A stretch of 64,000 bases of DNA, from sequence record NC_105587.1, one strand, 5' to 3'. The DNA is from Escherichia phage EC100. Of this stretch, positions 20 to 35,946 are shown piece after piece. The first letter of the stretch is position 1. Each line of letters opens with the position of its first letter. Below the pieces are notes generated by a model. It saw nothing but the letters and a program-made list of their open reading frames with translations, made no database searches and was not told the origin of the DNA. A program made the translations under genes and the position numbers.

Positions 20-754
20 TTATGCGACTTTTAATTTCTCAATATATTGTTGCGGGCTGCAACTATATTCTGCGCGTTCTTCTTCGGTCATACTTTCCCA
101 ACATAATTGCAGGCGGTCGGCTAGGAACTGATAATCATTATCATCCTCAAGAGATTCATCAATAAAGGTTTCGCCTATCAATGTGACACCGATTGATAGA
201 ATATCGTTAATAGCTTGCGCGTCCAGCGTTTTAAACCCGTATGATGCCGCCGCCGATAGCACGCCTTTATGATCGTCGATCATCGTAAAATCAGCGTTTG
301 GATATAGCTGTTTAAATAGCTCAAAGTAATGGCTTTTATATATAGCGTCTTTACTGTGGTATATTTCGCTAACTTTATCAGCTTCAAAATATTTGTGTAG
401 TGTATCACGGGAAAATACGCGGATATTACTATTACCACGACCACGCAAGCCTTGTTTGCGCAGGAAGTAATAATCTGATTTGCTCATTAGTCGAGCGGTA
501 CAAATAATGTTTAAAGTATTTGCGTCATTCATGCACTGGCGCATATATTCAACCAATGGCAATAAAGTATCCTGCATTATTAAATGATGTTTACACGCTT
601 CATTTTTATACTTATTTAAATCTAAATTGCCCTCATTATCAAAGCAAGGCGCGACACGATGGAAAGAATTAACGATAGTGCCGTCTAAATCCCAAATCAT
701 AACGCGGGAAATATGCGGGAAGCTGCGGGAAATATTCATAATAGCTTTATTCAT
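20..754 (-). CDS. dmp: 5'-deoxyribonucleotidase Dmp (HAD-family phosphatase)
   Basis: 244 aa; HAD motif I 'IWDLDGTIV' near N-terminus; GGAG RBS; size/position as T5 pre-early dmp. Confidence 0.8.
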   Translation of the reverse strand: MNKAIMNISRSFPHISRVMIWDLDGTIVNSFHRVAPCFDNEGNLDLNKYKNEACKHHLIMQDTLLPLVEYMRQCMNDANTLNIICTARLMSKSDYYFLRKQGLRGRGNSNIRVFSRDTLHKYFEADKVSEIYHSKDAIYKSHYFELFKQLYPNADFTMIDDHKGVLSAAASYGFKTLDAQAINDILSIGVTLIGETFIDESLEDDNDYQFLADRLQLCWESMTEEERAEYSCSPQQYIEKLKVA

Positions 755-1591: not shown

Positions 1592-3256
1592 TTACGCAAA
1601 GAATTTACCGTTCTTAAAGTCAATCAAAGTGCGTTGACCGTTTGCATAGGTAATTAAATGCGTTTGCGTCCAGCTTGACGCGCCAACGTTGTAACCCATA
1701 TCCAGACTACCCGCTACGCCAGCGGTATATACACCGCCGTAAATGCTGGCGGTGTGAGTGTGCCCCGTGTTTAACTTGCCCAATTTCTTAAACTGTTTAG
1801 GATTGCCACGGCTGCCGTTAATGCCATTGTGACCGTGTACGCCACATTCAATGCCTGCAATCTTGAAAGATTGATCAGTGGTCAGGAAAATGGCGTTAAA
1901 TTCACAACCTGCAACCTTGCGCAACGCATAATCTAGCACGTTGAACGTTTCGTCGTGTTCACCGATTGCCGCATAGATTGCAGCATTCAGGCGGTGATAC
2001 AGTTCCGCGTTCGCGGGATCGTCTTTGATGTTAGCATTACGATCATCAAGCCAACGGGATAGCGCCAAATCGTGATTAGATTCAACAATGATTGTTTGAG
2101 AAAAATCACGTTCCATTGATTCCAGCACGCGCCCAGTATCGATTAGATCATCCAAAACTTTATCACGTCCGGCGGCGTATTGTTTCGCTAGGAATACACC
2201 CGATGCGCGATTGTGATGGTTGCGCGATGTAAAATCATGCACGTCATGGATAAACTGATATTTTGGTTTAAGAATATCAAGCAAACTATTATCGCCAGCC
2301 CATGACGCAACGGCACAATCATCATCTAATTTTTCCGCATGAATATCGCCATACTGCAAGCCTAAAACATGCCCCGATGTCTCATAACATCCGGCGGGAG
2401 TAGCGCACACATTCAGATCATAAAACACCCCGCTTTCGTCCATTGTTTCAAGCTGGCGAACAAAAAATTCCCCATCCTCGTCGAACTCAACAATCAGCGC
2501 ACCGAAGTTATGCAGCGCCTCGGCCTTTTGTCCGGCTTTCTGCTGAATGTAGTTTTTGAGCGTTGCCGTTCCGGTTGAATACATACGGCGCACTACTTCA
2601 CCTTTTAAAGCTGGCACGCTTTCGGCGGTAATTTTAGCGTGACCAATCGCAAGCCCCTCAATATTGAGCGCGGTTGCAGTTTCTGCGAATCCTGAAAGCG
2701 GATAATCTGCGGTGGGCAAAACATTAATTTCAGCCATGAAAGCAAAACGGCGGTTATTTAAAAACACGTTTTTGCTGCAAATATATTTATCAAAAGCGGA
2801 ATCGTATTTAATACCGTCCGCACCTTCTCCATTCTGGAAGCCGTTTTTATTATAAATATACTTAGAAACAAGCAAATCAGCACCGATATATTCAGCGAAT
2901 TTTTCCAGACTTGCTAAAAAGTTTTTATGCGGGAAAGTATTATTCTGAATCGACGTAATAATAAAGCGTTTACCCTGTTTTACTTCCCATTGCTCAACCG
3001 TACTAGAAACAATTCCCGCCGCTTCTGGGCGCTCATCGTTTTTAATGGCTTTTGCTACTTTTGCCGCTTTCGGTTTAGCTGGTTTATTTGCTTCCAGCCA
3101 GTCGCAGATAGCGGTTGAATGCTTCGTTGTATCGTAGACCGCTTTTGATATATCGTCGCAGACTTCCAGTTTAGTAGCGCGCAGACGTTTACCATAGAAA
3201 TTAAAGTCAGCGGCCATTTTCAGGATAACAGTTTGCTTTTCTGCGGAAATAATCAT
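1592..3256 (-). CDS. A1: pre-early protein A1 (metallophosphatase-fold nuclease)
   Basis: 554 aa; calcineurin-like motifs 'GDIHAEKLD', 'GVHGHNG', 'GHTHTASIYGG'; size/position as T5 A1. Confidence 0.8.
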   Translation of the reverse strand: MIISAEKQTVILKMAADFNFYGKRLRATKLEVCDDISKAVYDTTKHSTAICDWLEANKPAKPKAAKVAKAIKNDERPEAAGIVSSTVEQWEVKQGKRFIITSIQNNTFPHKNFLASLEKFAEYIGADLLVSKYIYNKNGFQNGEGADGIKYDSAFDKYICSKNVFLNNRRFAFMAEINVLPTADYPLSGFAETATALNIEGLAIGHAKITAESVPALKGEVVRRMYSTGTATLKNYIQQKAGQKAEALHNFGALIVEFDEDGEFFVRQLETMDESGVFYDLNVCATPAGCYETSGHVLGLQYGDIHAEKLDDDCAVASWAGDNSLLDILKPKYQFIHDVHDFTSRNHHNRASGVFLAKQYAAGRDKVLDDLIDTGRVLESMERDFSQTIIVESNHDLALSRWLDDRNANIKDDPANAELYHRLNAAIYAAIGEHDETFNVLDYALRKVAGCEFNAIFLTTDQSFKIAGIECGVHGHNGINGSRGNPKQFKKLGKLNTGHTHTASIYGGVYTAGVAGSLDMGYNVGASSWTQTHLITYANGQRTLIDFKNGKFFA

Positions 3257-3346
3257 AGTAATAAAACTCCATTAAAGGGATTAGATTAATAATGGCAATA
3301 TTGCCAAATATAACGCCTCGAATAATAGGCGTTATAATTTGCAACA

Positions 3347-3544
3347 TTAATTTAAAGGCATCAGGCTAGAACTAACACCACAAGCAACGGCGGCAATAAA
3401 ACAAATCAGACCTAAACGCTTCGCTAACTTAGATTTACGTTTAAAATAATACGAATCTAAATCATTTTGAAAATAAGCGAATAATAGGGAGGCCGCCATA
3501 ATAAATAAGCCTAGAATTAAAGATTCAGTAGGGAAGAAAACCAT
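3347..3544 (-). CDS. small membrane protein
   Basis: 65 aa, two hydrophobic helices. Confidence 0.4.
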   Translation of the reverse strand: MVFFPTESLILGLFIMAASLLFAYFQNDLDSYYFKRKSKLAKRLGLICFIAAVACGVSSSLMPLN

Positions 3545-3598
3545 TTTTAAAACTCCTGATTTAAGGGAAGAAAATAACTATCGCTAAACAGTTATATT

Positions 3599-3623
3599 AT
3601 TGCCCCCTCACTAGAAGGGGGCA
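3599..3623 (-). terminator. hairpin terminator downstream of A2
   Basis: 9-bp stem TTGCCCCCT/AGGGGGCAA. Confidence 0.45.
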
Positions 3624-6417: not shown

Positions 6418-7427
6418 TGAGGCTGTATAAACCTGATAATGCCACCGTATTAAAGGGTGCATTGCGCAACCTGCTGGACGGTAGCAAGTCAACCAGCATT
6501 AAACATTTTATTAACAAGATTGAAACTACTCATCAAAACTTTTTTGATGACTATGATGCCTATGATATGGATAGTTTTTTGCCGTTGTATAAACAAGGGG
6601 CAACGCTTGTTTTATATAACCGTGATTGCCATATCTTTACAGGCAGGGGAGCAGGGCCGGATACCGATTTTATTGTTGCGCAGGGTAATAATATTGTTGC
6701 GTATCATAGCAATTCAGGCCGTCAATCATTTAATATAAATGTTTTTGAGCTTATTGGGCTTGATCTGATAAACGGACTTTCTAGCATTGAGGGATTTTTA
6801 GATGTTATCTGGAAGCATTTACCAGCTGGATGGTATAAGCCGGATAACGACGGATCTCAATATACTGGTATAATGGCTTTTGATGGCGATGGTAATTTTT
6901 TGTTACCACGGGAGTTATACCCGTATATTTATGATGGGGATATAGAAAGCGCTGGTTTTTCTTTCTGGAAAGATGAAGATCAGATTATTGACAGCGTAGA
7001 AAACCATGCTGTAAATTCTAACACTCAAAACGTTAATACTCAAACTACTGAAAACAAAGGAAAAAATACCATGACCAAGATTGCTAACATCGTTGCCGCC
7101 AATAAATCCGCTGTTGTAAACGCTGCAAAACTGGAAGCGGGTAAAATTGCATTAACTCAAATCACGAAAGTAGCGGCTAAAAAAGCACCGTTTATGATTA
7201 AAGGTTATATTGATACGCCTATCGGTCGAGTAGTAATTGCTAACCTGCTGAGTGTGGCGGTTGACCAGTACGCACCGACTAACCAAAAGGCGAAAGCGGT
7301 AGCAGGCGCGGCTATGGAAGCGGCAATGCTGGAAATGGTGCAAAGTTTTAACATCGCTGAAATGATTGATGAAATGGTGAAAGGTATTGATATTTCTACT
7401 TTTACCACTAGCACCGAAAGCGAGTAA
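6418..7427 (+). CDS. hypothetical protein
   Basis: ORF trimmed to ATG 6418 preceded by GAGGGAGG RBS; ~336 aa. Confidence 0.55.
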
Positions 7428-8000: not shown

Positions 8001-8028
8001 AAAGGCCGCCTCTTATGGCGGCCTTTTT
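8001..8028 (+). terminator. rho-independent terminator
   Basis: AGGCCGCC-TCTTA-GGCGGCCT then TTTTTTGTT. Confidence 0.65.
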
Positions 8029-8094
8029 TGTTATAATGCCCTTACACCGTTTGAGGACGGTTGAAAATTTTCCCAAAAATTTTGGAGGCTTATA

Positions 8095-8325
8095 ATGGTT
8101 GCTTATTCTTCTTCTGACGCTCTTTTCACTGGAAAAGGTTGGGTATCAAATCGCTGGATCATTCAAGAAATGGTGCAAGAATACGGCATTGCTAAAACTT
8201 ACACTACCATTCAGGCGCTTTATGATAATGATCAAATCGATCAGCAAACGGCGGGCTTTTTACTGGATACCCTGAAGGCGGAACACTGTACTAAAAAACA
8301 AGCCGCAAAAATTATTTTAATGTAA
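8095..8325 (+). CDS. hypothetical protein
   Basis: 76 aa, GGAGG RBS. Confidence 0.5.
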   Translation: MVAYSSSDALFTGKGWVSNRWIIQEMVQEYGIAKTYTTIQALYDNDQIDQQTAGFLLDTLKAEHCTKKQAAKIILM

Positions 8326-8371
8326 CTAATAACGGGGCGTTACTTTCGCCCCACTAACTAGGGGAATAAAA

Positions 8372-8518
8372 ATGGTTATTTTTCGAGCTATTCTAGCAGG
8401 TATCTTGGGCGCTATTTTATCCTTTTTTGCTATAGCTTTCGACGTTCACGCGGTTATTATTGGTGCGGGTATCGCTGTTTTTTCTTATTTGCTGGGCTGC
8501 ATGAATAAAGGAGAATAA
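8372..8518 (+). CDS. tiny membrane protein
   Basis: 48-aa hydrophobic ORF (below ORF-track cutoff), GGGGAA RBS. Confidence 0.35.
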   Translation: MVIFRAILAGILGAILSFFAIAFDVHAVIIGAGIAVFSYLLGCMNKGE

Positions 8519-8520
8519 AA

Positions 8521-8733
8521 ATGATTCGTAACGTTTCCCTTGCTCGTTCAAAGGGTTTTAAGCTGGTGGACGTTAACACGTTCGAGCGGGAAGATTGTAA
8601 AATCGAATATGTAGCACGGAATAAAAACGCCTTTCGTGTTACAGAAAAGAGATTCGATAAGCGCGGCAACGTGATAGCTGAAACGGTTAAATATTTTGCC
8701 ACCTTTTACGCGGCCTTTCGTGGGGTGCTATGA
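8521..8733 (+). CDS. hypothetical protein
   Basis: 70 aa, start abuts previous stop. Confidence 0.45.
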   Translation: MIRNVSLARSKGFKLVDVNTFEREDCKIEYVARNKNAFRVTEKRFDKRGNVIAETVKYFATFYAAFRGVL

Positions 8734-29554: not shown

Positions 29555-29630
29555 TGGAGCGGCTAGAGGGAATCGAACCCTACTCAGCGAGGCTTGGAAG
29601 GCCTGCGACACAACCCGTGTGCTTAACCGC
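29555..29630 (-). tRNA. tRNA-Gly (TCC)
   Basis: acceptor stem, anticodon loop CTTCCAA. Confidence 0.6.
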
Positions 29631-29638
29631 TTATTATT

Positions 29639-30105: not shown

Positions 30106-30470
30106 AATTGAAAACTCGCAGGGTTAGCGAAACCTTCCTCAATTAGCATGTTCTAGAATACTAATCAAGTTATCTCCTATTGCACGCAGCTCAAGACGAG
30201 TACGAATTTTCAATTGTGGCGGCTCTCAGAAACTCTTCTACTCTAGCCTTAGCAGCTTACTCCCGAACGCATGTCGGGGAAGTCTTACTAAGCGCATCAA
30301 ATAGCACCGTTACACTTTGAGCCATTGGTGTATCAAGAAGCAGAAGGACTTGAACCTTCACGAGATAGACCATTTATCTCAGCCGCTTTATGAGGTATGT
30401 TGCAGGGAGTGGATGTTCCCTATAAACCTTTTAGGCAGCCCCGTCTACCGATTCCGGCATACTTCAAGAT

Positions 30471-30565
30471 TTGGAGGTAGGTAAGGGGATCGAACCCTTA
30501 CACCGTATCACTACGATCAACCGATTTCAAGTCGGAGTCCAGCGCCAGCCATTGGATTGACCTAC
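30471..30565 (-). tRNA. tRNA-Ser (TGA), class II
   Basis: acceptor GGTAGGT/ACCTACC, long variable arm, anticodon loop CTTGAAA. Confidence 0.6.
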
Positions 30566-30577
30566 CATATAAGTTAT

Positions 30578-31877: not shown

Positions 31878-32269
31878 ATAAATTTTTAATAAATTTACTT
31901 ATTGTGTAGGCCACCTGGAGGCTATGAACCCCACGGCTGACAAAGAAGTTTGCGAGACCTCTCTTAAATGCCAGAATAGACCCGCCGATCTATCGGAACC
32001 TACATAATAAGTAAACTTTATAGTGTCATTCTAGACAGGACTCGAACCTGTTATCACTTGTGCGGACTTACGAGAACCATTCTTTCACTCGAATCGAACG
32101 AGCTTCTGCCCTCGCCAAGCTGGTTTCCCCATCAACCACGCTAGAATGTTTGATTGTTTTCAGTGCAAGAGTCCGAGTCTTGGACACGACCGCTTCGCAA
32201 GTACATAGGCAGCTTATCATGAGTCAGCACTTCCGAATTGCTAGCTCCGTGTTCTGCACTGAAATTTTG

Positions 32270-33168: not shown

Positions 33169-33270
33169 GCTTGTTTCCTCAGTTATTAATGAAAATGGTA
33201 TCTGTGGCTGGATTCGATGTCAGCAATGATAGCTGGTTGGCTACCGGTTTACTTAACTCTACACAGAATT

Positions 33271-33353
33271 TGGCGGGCCGTGTAGGATTCGAACCTACGT
33301 TGTCTTTCGACATGGATTAACAGTCCACCGCCAAACCGCTTGGCTAACGACCC
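33271..33353 (-). tRNA. tRNA, anticodon GTT (Asn?) with unusually long variable arm
   Basis: acceptor, D-arm, anticodon loop CTGTTAA, 13-nt variable region. Confidence 0.5.
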
Positions 33354-33505
33354 TGAATTTGTATTGCTGACTAGGATTTTCACCTAGACGGAGTTAGCAC
33401 CGTAGCGTGTAGCGGCATACCTCTCCAAACCGTGCCTCATCTTTCAATTACGGAGACAGTGTTCCTACGCGTGCCTGAATTGATTTAACAATTCTTTCAG
33501 CAAAT

Positions 33506-33581
33506 TGGACGACCGCATGAGATTTGAACTCACATAAAAAGGATTTGCAATCCTTCGCCTAAGCCATTCAGCCAACGGTCG
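33506..33581 (-). tRNA. tRNA-Cys (GCA)
   Basis: acceptor, anticodon arm AGGA-TTGCAAA-TCCT. Confidence 0.6.
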
Positions 33582-33629
33582 GTTTATCTTGTTCTGTCAT
33601 GTTGCTTCTCCAGTTCAATTTATGTAATT

Positions 33630-33658
33630 ATTATACAGAACTTTTGGAAACTAAGCAA
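33630..33658 (-). promoter_or_regulatory. strong sigma70 early promoter
   Basis: TTGCTT/17 bp/TATAAT. Confidence 0.6.
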
Positions 33659-33938
33659 CTACATTTTTTAAGAATTTGATGCCTTTCTTTTTCTTCTTAT
33701 ATTTCCACGTTAATGGATTCTGTCGATTATGAACGCTTGAGATCTTTGTCTCGTCAAAGTTCTTCAATACCATGTAATCACAAGATAATTGTTTTAATGG
33801 AATGTGATCACCGTCAAAAGCGTATACATAAGGCTGTTGACTAGCACGATAATGATAGACTTTGTTAATTCTACGTTTCAGCAACTTATCCGCGCAGTAA
33901 ATAAAGAAGTTTTCAGGATGCATCAGCAGCTCCCTCAA
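33651..33938 (-). CDS. hypothetical protein
   Basis: 95 aa; promoter upstream. Confidence 0.5.
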   Translation of the reverse strand: MRELLMHPENFFIYCADKLLKRRINKVYHYRASQQPYVYAFDGDHIPLKQLSCDYMVLKNFDETKISSVHNRQNPLTWKYKKKKKGIKFLKNVVA

Positions 33939-35868: not shown

Positions 35869-35946
35869 TGGTGGCTCCCCGAGGATTCGAACCTACGTAC
35901 CTTCCGGTTATGAGCCGGGTGCTCATACCATATGAGCTTGAGAACC
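35869..35946 (-). tRNA. tRNA-Met/Ile2 (CAT)
   Basis: acceptor GGTTCTC/GGGAGCC with G-U pairs, anticodon arm CCGG-CTCATAA-CCGG; weak T-stem. Confidence 0.5.

What the first reader, a model, noticed from the sequence alone, without database searches (positions are those of the whole stretch)
33364..33503. Second long tRNA-like element (~140 nt) directly abutting tRNA-Cys
Reverse-strand TTGCTGA (from 33503) pairs with TCAGCAA (to 33364), again immediately preceded by a 5-bp hairpin in T-arm position (CTAGG-TGAAAAT-CCTAG; the loop is not a canonical T-loop). The element starts 3 nt from the CCA end of tRNA-Cys. Internal hairpins (GAATTG...CAATTC) and a CGCTAC direct repeat are present. Two such elements in one cluster argues against coincidence.
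Basis: seen in the sequence. Interest (0 to 1): 0.5.

Follow-up and report, generated by a model that had tools for sequence, protein, structure and literature searches.

The report
Unannotated tRNA-shaped RNA gene in T5-like phages
The 141-base spacer between two tRNA genes of this T5-like phage encodes a conserved RNA that folds like a tRNA whose anticodon loop has been replaced by a 73-base structured insert; it is a new, unannotated member of the long-known but still function-less class of phage tRNA-like small RNAs.

Summary
Window 33363-33503 (minus strand, the tRNA strand) folds into a cloverleaf. It has a 7-bp acceptor-like stem, a 6-bp D-like hairpin and a 5-bp T-like arm with the loop UGAAAAU. 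A 10-bp "anticodon" helix opens into a 62-nt two-hairpin insert.

In 13 distinct homologues, all 479 pair cells are standard pairs and 15 of 37 pairs show compensatory changes. G·U pairs occur only on the tRNA-sense strand.

The element occurs in about 218 phage records: Tequintavirus, Epseptimavirus, an Enterobacter relative, and the unrelated Mydovirus myoviruses. It always lies inside a tRNA array, on the tRNA strand, usually 2-3 nt after a tRNA's CCA, but between different tRNA neighbours. Other T5-like phages have a clean empty site there. T5 itself carries a T5orf172 nuclease-like ORF at that position, which probably explains why the element was never described.

It matches no Rfam family, no host or plasmid DNA, and none of T5 RNA1/2/3 or T4 RNA C/D.

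Best reading: a stand-alone gene for a tRNA-shaped non-coding RNA, excised by tRNA-processing enzymes, with the conserved insert as the functional cargo. Expression and function are untested. I rate it a new member of a known kind, of moderate interest.

The parts
33363..33503 (-). The whole tRNA-shaped RNA gene: 140 nt plus the discriminator-position U at 33363.
   Evidence: The covariance model R1 scores it at 168 bits and it is the only match in the window. It is a precise indel relative to the empty-site phages Spc35 and TrudiRoth.
33497..33503 (-). P1, 5' strand of the acceptor-like 7-bp stem (UUGCUGA).
   Evidence: It pairs with 33364-33370. Four of the 7 pairs change on both sides across clades and one more becomes G·U.
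33477..33494 (-). P2, the D-arm-like hairpin GAAUUG-UUAAAU-CAAUUC. Its loop has no G18G19 equivalent.
   Evidence: Five of the 6 pairs are compensatory and up to 3 pair types occur per position.
33465..33475 (-). P3, 5' strand of the anticodon-arm helix (GGCAC, a bulged G, then CGUAG).
   Evidence: It pairs with 33396-33405. C-G becomes G-C and A-U becomes U·G in Mydovirus; the other 8 pairs are invariant.
33434..33457 (-). P4, a hairpin inside the insert: GUCUC, a 14-nt loop CGUAAUUGAAAGAU, then GAGGC.
   Evidence: Three of the 5 pairs are compensatory: U-A, A-U and C-G at one position; G-C and U-A at another; and C-G to U-A (once) beside U·G at a third.
33413..33432 (-). P5, a 4-bp hairpin (CGGU/GCCG) with a 12-nt purine-rich loop UUGGAGAGGUAU.
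   Evidence: The pairs are invariant, so they are neither supported nor contradicted. GAG in the loop may pair with CUC in the variable region; one compensatory A-U to G-C change supports this.
33396..33412 (-). Junction CUACACG (33406-33412) plus the 3' strand of P3, CUACGGUGCU (33396-33405). With the adjacent P5 3' strand (to 33418), this is the invariant 19-nt core AUGCCGCUACACGCUACGG, which includes the CGCUAC direct repeat.
   Evidence: The core is invariant in all intact copies from all clades.
33388..33395 (-). An 8-nt variable-loop equivalent, AACUCCGU.
   Evidence: Its position lies between P3 and the T-like arm.
33371..33387 (-). T-arm-like hairpin CUAGG-UGAAAAU-CCUAG. The stem is 5 bp and the loop is 7 nt and invariant. 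It lacks the canonical UUCRANY sequence but keeps U at loop position 1 and A at position 5.
   Evidence: One pair is compensatory (A-U to U-A) and the loop is invariant in all but one partial copy (L009: UGAAAAC).
33364..33370 (-). P1, 3' strand (UCAGCAA). It is followed by U33363 and a 9-nt A/U-rich trailer that does not encode CCA.
   Evidence: The trailer varies between copies (ACA, AUA, GUA, AAU, AGU, ACU).
33506..33581 (-). The upstream tRNA-Cys(GCA). Its CCA end lies 2 nt before the element.
   Evidence: Called by ARAGORN and Rfam.
33271..33353 (-). The downstream tRNA-Asn(GUU), starting 9 nt after the discriminator base.
   Evidence: Called by ARAGORN and Rfam.
33630..33658 (-). Promoter of the transcription unit: -35 TTGCTT at 33658-33653, a 17-nt spacer, and -10 TATAAT at 33635-33630. 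It is the counterpart of T5 and phage 5 promoter P14b.
   Evidence: Read directly. Window 33200-33700 is 98.8% identical to AJ604531 6867-7367, where P14b is annotated at 7271-7345. The simple consensus scan did not list it.

Best explanation
Window 33363-33503 (minus strand) is a stand-alone gene for a tRNA-shaped non-coding RNA.

**Proposed pathway**
- It is transcribed from the early promoter P14b as part of the polycistronic precursor tRNA-Cys, element, tRNA-Asn, RNA3.
- The acceptor-like stem stacked on the T-like arm gives 12 bp. Together with the D-like arm this reproduces the tRNA shape that RNase P reads.
- RNase P would therefore cut at U33503. Cleavage at the 5' end of tRNA-Asn, followed by 3' trimming, would release an RNA of about 141 nt.
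- The tRNA chassis acts as a natural "tRNA scaffold" that supplies processing signals and stability.
- The functional part is the 73-nt insert that replaces the anticodon loop: a helix extension, two hairpins, the invariant core AUGCCGCUACACGCUACGG and a purine-rich loop. It probably binds a protein or RNA partner.
- It is an accessory, horizontally mobile gene of phage tRNA arrays.

**Shown:** the fold, the strand, conservation and covariation, the modular gain and loss, and the context.

**Inferred:** transcription, RNase P and 3' processing, stability, and that the insert is the effector. The target is unknown.
For: - **Fold.** Six helices; all pair cells are standard pairs in 13 distinct sequences; 15 of 37 pairs are compensatory. 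Slid controls pair in 23-44% of cells, and no shuffle in 500 reached the observed covariation score. RNAalifold gives the identical structure.
- **Strand.** There are 32 G·U cells and no A·C cells on the tRNA-sense strand.
- **tRNA shape.** Stems are 7 bp, 5 bp with a 7-nt loop, and 5 bp for the anticodon stem, with 2 nt between the acceptor and D arms. ARAGORN at a lowered threshold draws the cloverleaf at exactly these ends.
- **Gene-like modularity.** The element is a precise ~143-nt indel relative to Spc35 and TrudiRoth. It is flanked by different tRNAs in five arrangements. It is always on the tRNA strand and, in all but BIS47, 2-3 nt after a tRNA's CCA.
- **Cross-family conservation.** Between Mydovirus and the window, only tRNA genes and this element are similar at the DNA level.
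- **The insert is the most conserved part.** It holds an invariant 19-mer and the invariant CGCGUAGG.
- **No coding potential.** No ORF of 20 aa or more lies within the element. One 36-aa TTG frame (33465-33575) starts inside tRNA-Cys and runs 39 nt into it; it looks spurious.
- **Promoter.** P14b lies upstream, and the scan found no terminator-like site inside the element.
- **Precedents.**
  - T5 RNA1 and RNA2 are annotated as tRNA-like stable RNAs in the same cluster and fold the same way.
  - T4 RNA C and D are expressed and still have no known function (PMC9697503).
  - Engineered RNAs placed in the anticodon arm of a tRNA scaffold are processed and accumulate in E. coli (PMC3753655).
  - Bacterial YrlA RNAs have a tRNA-like domain and are substrates for enzymes that recognise tRNAs; the paper reports RNase P cleavage and CCA addition for M. 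smegmatis YrlA (PMC4201824).
Against: - There are no expression data of any kind for this element.
- Diversity is shallow. There are effectively three clades plus minor variants, so each compensatory change may be a single event. Helix P5 and half of P3 never vary.
- The T-loop lacks positions 55-56 of the canonical sequence and the D-loop lacks GG, so recognition by the tRNA enzymes is assumed, not shown.
- No CCA is encoded.
- The element is dispensable. Many relatives have an empty site; T5 has an ORF there; KKP_3822 carries a decayed copy; an NR01-like contig has lost the 5' half.
- No target or partner was found. The longest shared or complementary run elsewhere in the window is 12 nt (plus-strand hits, the complementary ones, reach 11 nt), at chance level.
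Confidence: 0.68

Rival explanations
1. The element acts only in cis as a processing or insulator module. The tRNA-like fold would provide extra RNase P or RNase E entry sites that help separate and mature the neighbouring tRNAs, and the released RNA would have no function of its own.
For: In all but one copy it lies 2-3 nt after a tRNA's CCA, and it is usually followed within about 10 nt by another tRNA. It is dispensable.
Against: Phages with the empty site keep the same two tRNAs only 7-9 nt apart, so no spacer module is needed. A processing signal would not need an invariant, structured 73-nt insert conserved across two phage families. The element also keeps its identity while its tRNA neighbours change.
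Confidence: 0.12
2. It is a real tRNA gene interrupted by a 63-nt intervening sequence. After excision it would give a 78-nt tRNA with a CUA (amber-reading) anticodon.
For: ARAGORN with introns allowed and the threshold lowered to 80% reports tRNA(cta) with a 63-nt intron at exactly the element's ends in the window and in phiR2-01.
Against: - There is no call at default thresholds and no Rfam tRNA hit even at E up to 10.
- The pseudo-anticodon loop CGCUACG lacks U33 and a purine at position 37.
- The CUA lies inside helix P3b.
- The supposed intron is the best-conserved, covarying part. From general knowledge, it is far too short to be a group I intron.
- The T and D loops lack the conserved tRNA nucleotides.
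- ARAGORN parses the Mydovirus copy differently, as aca with a 50-nt intron.
Confidence: 0.03
3. It is a decaying tRNA pseudogene or fused tRNA remnants: neutral spacer DNA with leftover hairpins.
For: tRNA arrays of these phages are rearranged often and contain remnants. BIS47 has a tRNA 3' fragment just upstream of the element. The Epseptimavirus clade has an 84-nt remnant-like spacer downstream. Decayed copies of the element itself exist.
Against: Compensatory substitutions in five helices and zero broken pairs in 479 cells indicate purifying selection on the fold. Identity of 75-80% across two unrelated phage families equals that of their functional tRNA genes. Truly decayed copies look different: KKP_3822 scores 71 bits and has internal deletions.
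Confidence: 0.05
4. It encodes a 12-aa peptide (AUG at 33418 to UGA in the T-loop: MPLHATVLTPSR), preceded by a Shine-Dalgarno-like GGAGAGG.
For: The AUG, the stop codon and the frame length are the same in all clades, and a GGAGG-like run precedes the AUG (read directly).
Against: - The SD-like run is only 0-1 nt from the AUG.
- The AUG lies in the 3' strand of P5.
- Three of the four codons that differ between Tequintavirus and Mydovirus change the amino acid (Val to Gly, Pro to Leu, Arg to Trp). All but one of those base changes (C to U at 33390) are the compensatory partners of RNA pairs.
- No ORF of 20 aa or more lies within the element.
Confidence: 0.03
5. It works at the DNA level, for example as a homing-endonuclease target, recombination site or origin-like element.
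For: The same site holds a GIY-YIG-like T5orf172 ORF in T5, and HNH endonuclease genes are scattered through these arrays.
Against: Pairing is strand-specific. The 32 G·U cells would all be A·C mismatches on the other strand. Protein-recognised DNA sites do not show compensatory changes 140 nt apart.
Confidence: 0.02

Closest known systems
T5 'tRNA-like stable RNAs' RNA1 (144 nt), RNA2 (125 nt) and RNA3 (73 nt), annotated in NC_005859 and AJ604531
   Same: They lie in the same tRNA cluster on the same strand and have similar lengths. They share the architecture of a terminal acceptor-like stem, a T arm and an enlarged middle. Their function is unknown. Homologues of all three are in this window, at 30324-30468, 32024-32148 and 33196-33268.
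   Different: There is no detectable homology: the covariance model finds nothing in the T5 tRNA region. RNA1 and RNA2 keep canonical GGUUCGAAUCC-type T loops, whereas this element has UGAAAAU. This element is absent from T5 and unannotated in every record seen. It is the only non-tRNA sequence shared with Mydovirus.
Phage T4 RNA C (species 1, 139 nt) and RNA D (species 2, 119 nt)
   Same: They are small RNAs encoded at the end of the T4 tRNA cluster. RNA C has a T arm and paired termini. They are expressed, and their function is still unknown after about 50 years (PMC9697503).
   Different: There is no sequence or model similarity. T4 RNA C has a canonical T loop. The phage families are different.
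Engineered 'tRNA scaffold' for recombinant RNA (Ponchon and Dardel; PMC3753655)
   Same: The design is the same: acceptor, T and D arms are kept and the anticodon stem-loop is replaced by a structured insert. Such chimeras are processed and accumulate in E. coli.
   Different: The scaffold is man-made and uses authentic tRNA sequences with canonical loops. The natural element has diverged D and T loops and encodes no CCA.
Bacterial and phage YrlA (Y RNA-like) tRNA mimics (PMC4201824)
   Same: These are non-coding RNAs with a tRNA-like domain, and some are phage-encoded. According to the paper they are substrates for enzymes that recognise tRNAs, with RNase P cleavage and CCA addition reported for M. 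smegmatis YrlA.
   Different: From my own knowledge, the YrlA termini form the Ro60-binding stem rather than the acceptor stem, and YrlA is encoded next to Ro60/Rsr. I looked for no Ro60 gene here, and there is no Rfam hit.
tmRNA tRNA-like domain
   Same: The 5' and 3' ends form an acceptor stem next to a T arm, with a large insert in place of the anticodon arm.
   Different: The ARAGORN tmRNA search is negative. Position 3:70 is G-C or A-U, not G·U. The element is about 140 nt, against about 360 nt for tmRNA, and has no pseudoknot ring or tag reading frame.

Membership tests
tRNA (Rfam RF00005 / ARAGORN) | Detected by tRNA covariance or heuristic models at normal thresholds | tested here: not met
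   There is no RF00005 hit at E up to 10 and no ARAGORN call at default settings, with or without introns.
tRNA (Rfam RF00005 / ARAGORN) | Cloverleaf geometry: 7-bp acceptor stem, D arm, 5-bp anticodon stem, and a 5-bp T stem with a 7-nt loop | tested here: met
   Searches support the stems; four of the five cloverleaf stems show compensatory changes.
tRNA (Rfam RF00005 / ARAGORN) | A 7-nt anticodon loop with U33 and a purine at 37; a canonical T loop (UUCRANY); G18G19 in the D loop | tested here: not met
   The anticodon loop is replaced by 73 nt. The T loop is UGAAAAU. The D loop is UUAAAU and has no GG.
Phage tRNA-like stable RNAs (T5 RNA1/2/3, T4 RNA C/D): a descriptive class, not a homology family | Encoded within a phage tRNA cluster on the tRNA strand, with paired termini and a T-arm-like hairpin, and longer than a tRNA | tested here: met
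Phage tRNA-like stable RNAs (T5 RNA1/2/3, T4 RNA C/D): a descriptive class, not a homology family | Accumulates as a discrete stable RNA in infected cells | not testable with these tools
   No expression data are accessible. This needs a Northern blot or small-RNA sequencing.
Phage tRNA-like stable RNAs (T5 RNA1/2/3, T4 RNA C/D): a descriptive class, not a homology family | Sequence or structure homology to a described member | tested here: not met
   Model R1 finds no match in the T5 tRNA region or the T4 tRNA region at E up to 10. Local alignment to T4 RNA C is at shuffle level.
tmRNA | A tRNA-like domain with G3·U70, a tag reading frame and pseudoknots; detected by ARAGORN | tested here: not met
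   The ARAGORN tmRNA mode is negative, also at a lowered threshold. Pair 3:70 is G-C or A-U.
Any Rfam 15 family (including Y RNA/YrlA, 6S, SRP and phage motifs) | A covariance-model match | tested here: not met
   The only hit is a 15.9-bit chance match to HIV-1_SL3 on the opposite strand.
tRNA gene with a group I intron | An intron of at least ~200 nt with the P1-P9 core inserted in the anticodon loop | tested here: not met
   The insert is 63-73 nt and there is no Rfam intron hit.

The most novel reading that the evidence does not exclude
The element is a natural tRNA-scaffolded effector RNA: a stand-alone gene that moves between the tRNA arrays of unrelated Enterobacteriaceae phages. Its tRNA-shaped chassis hijacks host RNase P and 3'-end processing. 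Its invariant insert acts in trans, for example as a decoy or inhibitor of a tRNA-directed or ribosome-directed host defence, or as a modulator of the translation apparatus through its Shine-Dalgarno-like loop. This would give the first function for the 50-year-old class of phage tRNA-like RNAs.
Probability: 0.2. Interest if true: 0.75.

Novelty: new member of a known kind. Interest (0 to 1): 0.45.

Why it matters
T5-like phages are classical models and common therapy and biocontrol candidates, yet this conserved RNA gene is annotated in none of the records examined. In several it is overlaid by spurious protein calls.

It adds a well-supported family to the phage tRNA-like RNAs, whose function has been an open question since T4 RNA C and D were sequenced in the 1970s.

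This member has natural allelic states at one locus: present, cleanly absent, replaced by a nuclease-like ORF, or decayed. Both the present and the absent state occur in the BASEL collection. Its function is therefore directly testable by comparing near-isogenic phages across hosts and defence systems.

It is also a natural counterpart of the engineered tRNA scaffold. Its non-canonical T and D loops may show which tRNA features are really needed for processing and stability.

Tried and rejected
- **Rfam.** A 14-kb search at E up to 1 and a search of the element alone at E up to 10 gave no family.
- **Host or plasmid origin.** Sensitive blastn against 5,426 E. coli genomes and 72,556 plasmids found nothing real.
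- **Paralogues, or homology to T5 RNA1/2/3 or T4 RNA C/D.** The covariance-model search was negative. Smith-Waterman scores were at shuffle level.
- **More distant relatives.**
  - Two IMG/VR pattern scans, one metagenome scan and one GTDB scan were run.
  - All loci were screened with nhmmer, and most IMG/VR loci also with the covariance model.
  - They returned only the same clades plus chance hits.
  - The patterns required the conserved core and T loop, so relatives that diverged there would be missed.
- **The single-sequence MFE interior.** The GGCA/UGCC closing stem and the ACGG/CCGU hairpin were rejected. The first breaks in Mydovirus, and the second competes with helix P3, which has two compensatory pairs.
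- **MAFFT alignment of the Mydovirus copies.** It misregistered the 5' end. I replaced it with a hand register using N as a gap placeholder and later with a covariance-model alignment.
- **Antisense target in the window.** The longest exact match on either strand was 12 nt, at chance level.
- **5S rRNA resemblance.** The Mydovirus P4 hairpin resembles it (4 of 1000 shuffles), but the window's version does not. I treat it as chance.
- **A partner protein shared with Mydovirus.** The only shared ORF nearby (window 42231-42869) has no Pfam domain and PHROGs labels it a tail fibre protein. I did not pursue it.
- **Literature.** No paper in the searchable library mentions a tRNA-like RNA between tRNA-Cys and tRNA-Asn of T5-like phages.

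Full report
**Where the window comes from.** Window 33200-33700 is 100% identical to Escherichia phage EC122 and its relatives, and 98.8% identical to the "bacteriophage 5 tRNA gene region" AJ604531. The window is therefore a T5-like phage (Demerecviridae, Tequintavirus). ARAGORN finds 20 tRNA genes on the minus strand between 28.2 and 39.7 kb. The finding is the 152-nt spacer between tRNA-Cys (33506-33581) and tRNA-Asn (33271-33353).

**Checking the observation.**
- UUGCUGA (33503-33497) pairs with UCAGCAA (33370-33364).
- The hairpin CUAGG-UGAAAAU-CCUAG lies immediately 5' of that 3' strand.
- GAAUUG-UUAAAU-CAAUUC follows the 5' strand after two As.
- CGCUAC occurs twice.
- Two bases (AU) separate the element from the CCA of tRNA-Cys.

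Alone, the fold is only mildly better than shuffles (z = -2.1). Single-sequence evidence is therefore weak.

**Homologues.**
- blastn finds the spacer in about 218 of 50,697 phage records. These include many Tequintavirus phages, the Epseptimavirus group (phiR2-01, Roth37, Sugarland) and an unclassified Enterobacter phage of the Markadamsvirinae (KKP_3711).
- At about 75% identity it also occurs in Klebsiella myoviruses of the genus Mydovirus (Vequintavirinae: VIK251 and BIS47) and in the closely similar, unclassified Klebsiella phage P8734.
- Between Mydovirus and this window, the only similar DNA is tRNA genes and this element.
- There is no match in E. coli genomes and none of significance in plasmids.
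- Pattern scans of IMG/VR, JGI metagenomes and GTDB genomes returned only the same clades.

**Structure.**
- MAFFT misplaced the 5' end of the Mydovirus copies. I fixed the register by hand, using N as a gap placeholder (alignment A3).
- I then searched all column pairs for runs that pair in every sequence.
- The resulting model has six helices:

| Helix | Description |
|---|---|
| P1 | acceptor-like stem, 7 bp |
| P2 | D-like hairpin, 6 bp |
| P3 | 5 + 5 bp with one bulged G, closing the whole interior |
| P4 | 5-bp hairpin with a 14-nt loop |
| P5 | 4-bp hairpin with a 12-nt purine-rich loop |
| P6 | T-like arm, 5 bp, with the 7-nt loop UGAAAAU |

- On A3, all 404 cells are standard pairs and 14 of 37 pairs change on both sides. 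Sliding the 3' partners by 1-3 columns gives 24-43% pairing.
- RNAalifold predicts exactly the same 37 pairs.
- A covariance model built from this (R1) re-aligned 14 copies, 13 of them distinct, including two new variants. That gave 479 of 479 cells paired and 15 compensatory pairs.
- Support is strong for P1, P2 and P4. It is moderate for P3a, which has two compensatory pairs. P6 has one. P3b and P5 are invariant, so they have no support either way.
- A 3-bp contact between the P5 loop (GAG) and the variable loop (CUC) has one compensatory change and remains a candidate only.
- All 32 wobble cells are G·U on the tRNA-sense strand and none is A·C. The fold therefore belongs to an RNA made from the same strand as the tRNAs.

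**It is tRNA-shaped but not a tRNA.**
- The layout matches a tRNA cloverleaf in geometry:
  - a 7-bp stem, 2 nt, a hairpin and 1 nt;
  - a 5-bp stem, the interior and the returning 5-bp strand;
  - an 8-nt variable loop, a 5-bp stem with a 7-nt loop, the 7-nt returning strand and a discriminator base.
- The anticodon loop is replaced by 73 nt.
- With introns allowed and the score threshold at 80%, ARAGORN draws this cloverleaf with ends at 33503 and 33363 and calls the middle a 63-nt intron.
- That call is not evidence for a real intron-containing tRNA:
  - the residual loop CGCUACG lacks U33 and a purine at 37;
  - its CUA lies inside helix P3b;
  - the T and D loops lack the universal tRNA nucleotides;
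  - no tRNA model scores the element at normal or very relaxed thresholds;
  - the "intron" is the best-conserved part.
- The T loop does keep U at position 1 and A at position 5. From my own knowledge, that fits the general T-loop motif. This was not tested.

**A discrete, mobile, dispensable gene.**
- Phages such as Spc35 and TrudiRoth (BASEL Bas30) have the same tRNA-Cys and tRNA-Asn separated by only 7-9 nt. The element is a clean ~143-nt indel relative to them.
- In T5 itself the site holds ORF T5.069, a T5orf172/MUG113-domain protein. From my own knowledge, this domain belongs to the GIY-YIG nuclease superfamily. Model R1 finds no copy of the element elsewhere in the T5 tRNA region.
- That probably explains why the element was not described with the T5 small RNAs. 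The phage 5 record AJ604531 does contain it, at 7030-7170, but leaves it unannotated.
- The element sits between different neighbours in different phages:

| Phage group | Order along the tRNA strand |
|---|---|
| Tequintavirus | Cys, element, Asn |
| phiR2-01 | Cys, Asn, element |
| Roth37 / Sugarland | Asn, element, 84 nt, Cys |
| KKP_3711 | a tRNA-like sequence, element, Asn |
| Mydovirus | Ser, element, Ser |

- In all but one copy it starts 2-3 nt after a tRNA's CCA. BIS47 has only a tRNA 3' remnant upstream.
- Decayed copies exist. KKP_3822 has internal deletions and scores 71 bits. An NR01-like contig has its 5' half replaced.

**Transcription context.** A T5-type promoter lies 42 nt upstream of tRNA-Cys: TTGCTT, 17 nt, TATAAT, at 33658-33630. 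It corresponds to the annotated promoter P14b. The consensus scan found no terminator-like site inside the element. No ORF of 20 aa or more lies within the element. One 36-aa TTG frame (33465-33575) starts inside tRNA-Cys and runs 39 nt into it, and it looks spurious.

**The conserved 12-codon frame.** A frame of 12 codons (AUG at 33418 to UGA in the T loop) is the same length in all clades. I do not think it is translated, for three reasons.
- The Shine-Dalgarno-like run is 0-1 nt from the AUG.
- The AUG is in a helix strand.
- Most substitutions between clades change the amino acid, and all but one of them are explained by RNA pairing.

**Most likely mechanism.**
- *Shown:* a selected, strand-specific, tRNA-shaped fold. 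It is encoded as a separate module inside tRNA operons in two unrelated phage families. Its interior is more conserved than its stems.
- *Inferred:*
  - It is co-transcribed with the tRNAs.
  - RNase P cuts at its 5' end, because the 12-bp acceptor/T-arm stack and the elbow are what the enzyme reads.
  - Cleavage at the next tRNA's 5' end plus 3' trimming frees an RNA of about 141 nt.
  - The tRNA chassis gives stability.
  - The insert is the effector.
- *Precedents:*
  - the T5 RNAs annotated as tRNA-like stable RNAs in this same cluster;
  - T4 RNA C and D;
  - YrlA RNAs, which are handled by tRNA enzymes;
  - the engineered tRNA scaffold, where structured inserts in the anticodon arm are processed and accumulate in E. 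coli.
- *Unknown:* what the insert does. No complementary target was found in the window, and neither the element nor its insert matches any Rfam family.
- *Speculation:* a decoy or inhibitor role against tRNA-directed or translation-directed host functions. This is attractive because the element is accessory and horizontally shared among phages of Enterobacteriaceae.

**Comparison with known systems and verdict.**
- The element belongs descriptively to the phage tRNA-like small RNAs but is not homologous to any described member.
- It fails the membership tests for tRNA, tmRNA and every Rfam family.
- I rate it a new member of a known kind. The structured-RNA gene is well supported. The function is unknown and expression is untested.
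The companion element at 32018-32137 is the homologue of T5 RNA2, which is already annotated in T5.

Noticed in passing
Homologues of T5 RNA1, RNA3, RNAIII, RNAI, RNA2H and RNAIV are also present. All are annotated in T5 as stable RNAs (RNA3 as a putative tRNA-like RNA), with function unknown where stated.
   Followed up: partly
L129 (T5 NC_005859) 8007-8525; window equivalent 33354-33505: In T5 itself the Cys-Asn spacer holds ORF T5.069, the founding T5orf172/MUG113-domain protein and a likely GIY-YIG-type nuclease. This locus therefore has three allelic states among relatives: empty, the RNA element, or a nuclease-like ORF.
   Followed up: partly
L018 (IMG/VR copy of a 111,325-bp NR01-like phage) 924-1055: The 5' half of the element is replaced by a promoter-like TTGCTT...TATAAT, a GGAG and a 12-codon ORF that runs into the remaining 3' half. 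This looks like a recombination scar.
   Followed up: no
L219 864-947 (-), and the same spacer in Roth37 and L012: The 84 nt between the element and tRNA-Cys in the Epseptimavirus clade have paired ends (UUAGGGU/GCCCUAA) and a CCGG-UGGAACU-CCGG hairpin. This may be a decayed tRNA or another tRNA-like RNA. Its fold is not better than shuffles.
   Followed up: partly
L307 (Proteus phage PM135) 5785-5910 (-): This is a different 126-nt tRNA-shaped sequence with a canonical T loop and a ~41-nt insert. It gives a weak model hit of 15.5 bits. Long tRNA-like RNAs may be common in Demerecviridae tRNA arrays.
   Followed up: no
L003 (BIS47) 2373-2594 (+); L007 (Roth37) 516-659 (-); window 33465-33575 (-): Protein-coding features annotated over the element are probably spurious calls on an RNA gene. 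They include a 73-aa 'DNA ligase' in BIS47 and hypothetical proteins in Roth37, Es2 and others. The window's own 36-aa TTG ORF overlapping tRNA-Cys looks equally spurious.
   Followed up: no
L002 (VIK251) 2734-2894, 2986-3179 and 3256-3607: The Mydovirus tRNA array has several other unannotated spacers of 160-350 nt between tRNA genes. One of them, when folded, was not better than shuffles.
   Followed up: partly
window 35872-35946, 40158-40229, 29558-29631 and 30476-30566 (-): Rfam tRNA or tRNA-Sec-type hits that ARAGORN did not call. By position they probably correspond to tRNAs annotated in T5 and phage 5, such as Ile2, Gly and Ser.
   Followed up: no
L002 2502-2637 (-), P4 hairpin: The Mydovirus version of P4 (UCCCCAUGAGAGUUGGGGAAC) resembles E. 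coli 5S rRNA positions 88-110; 4 of 1000 shuffles score as well. The window's version shows no such similarity, so this is probably chance.
   Followed up: yes
window 42231-42869 (-): A 212-aa ORF with no Pfam domain; PHROGs labels it a tail fibre protein. It is the only protein clearly shared (39% identity) between the fetched Mydovirus region and this window.
   Followed up: partly
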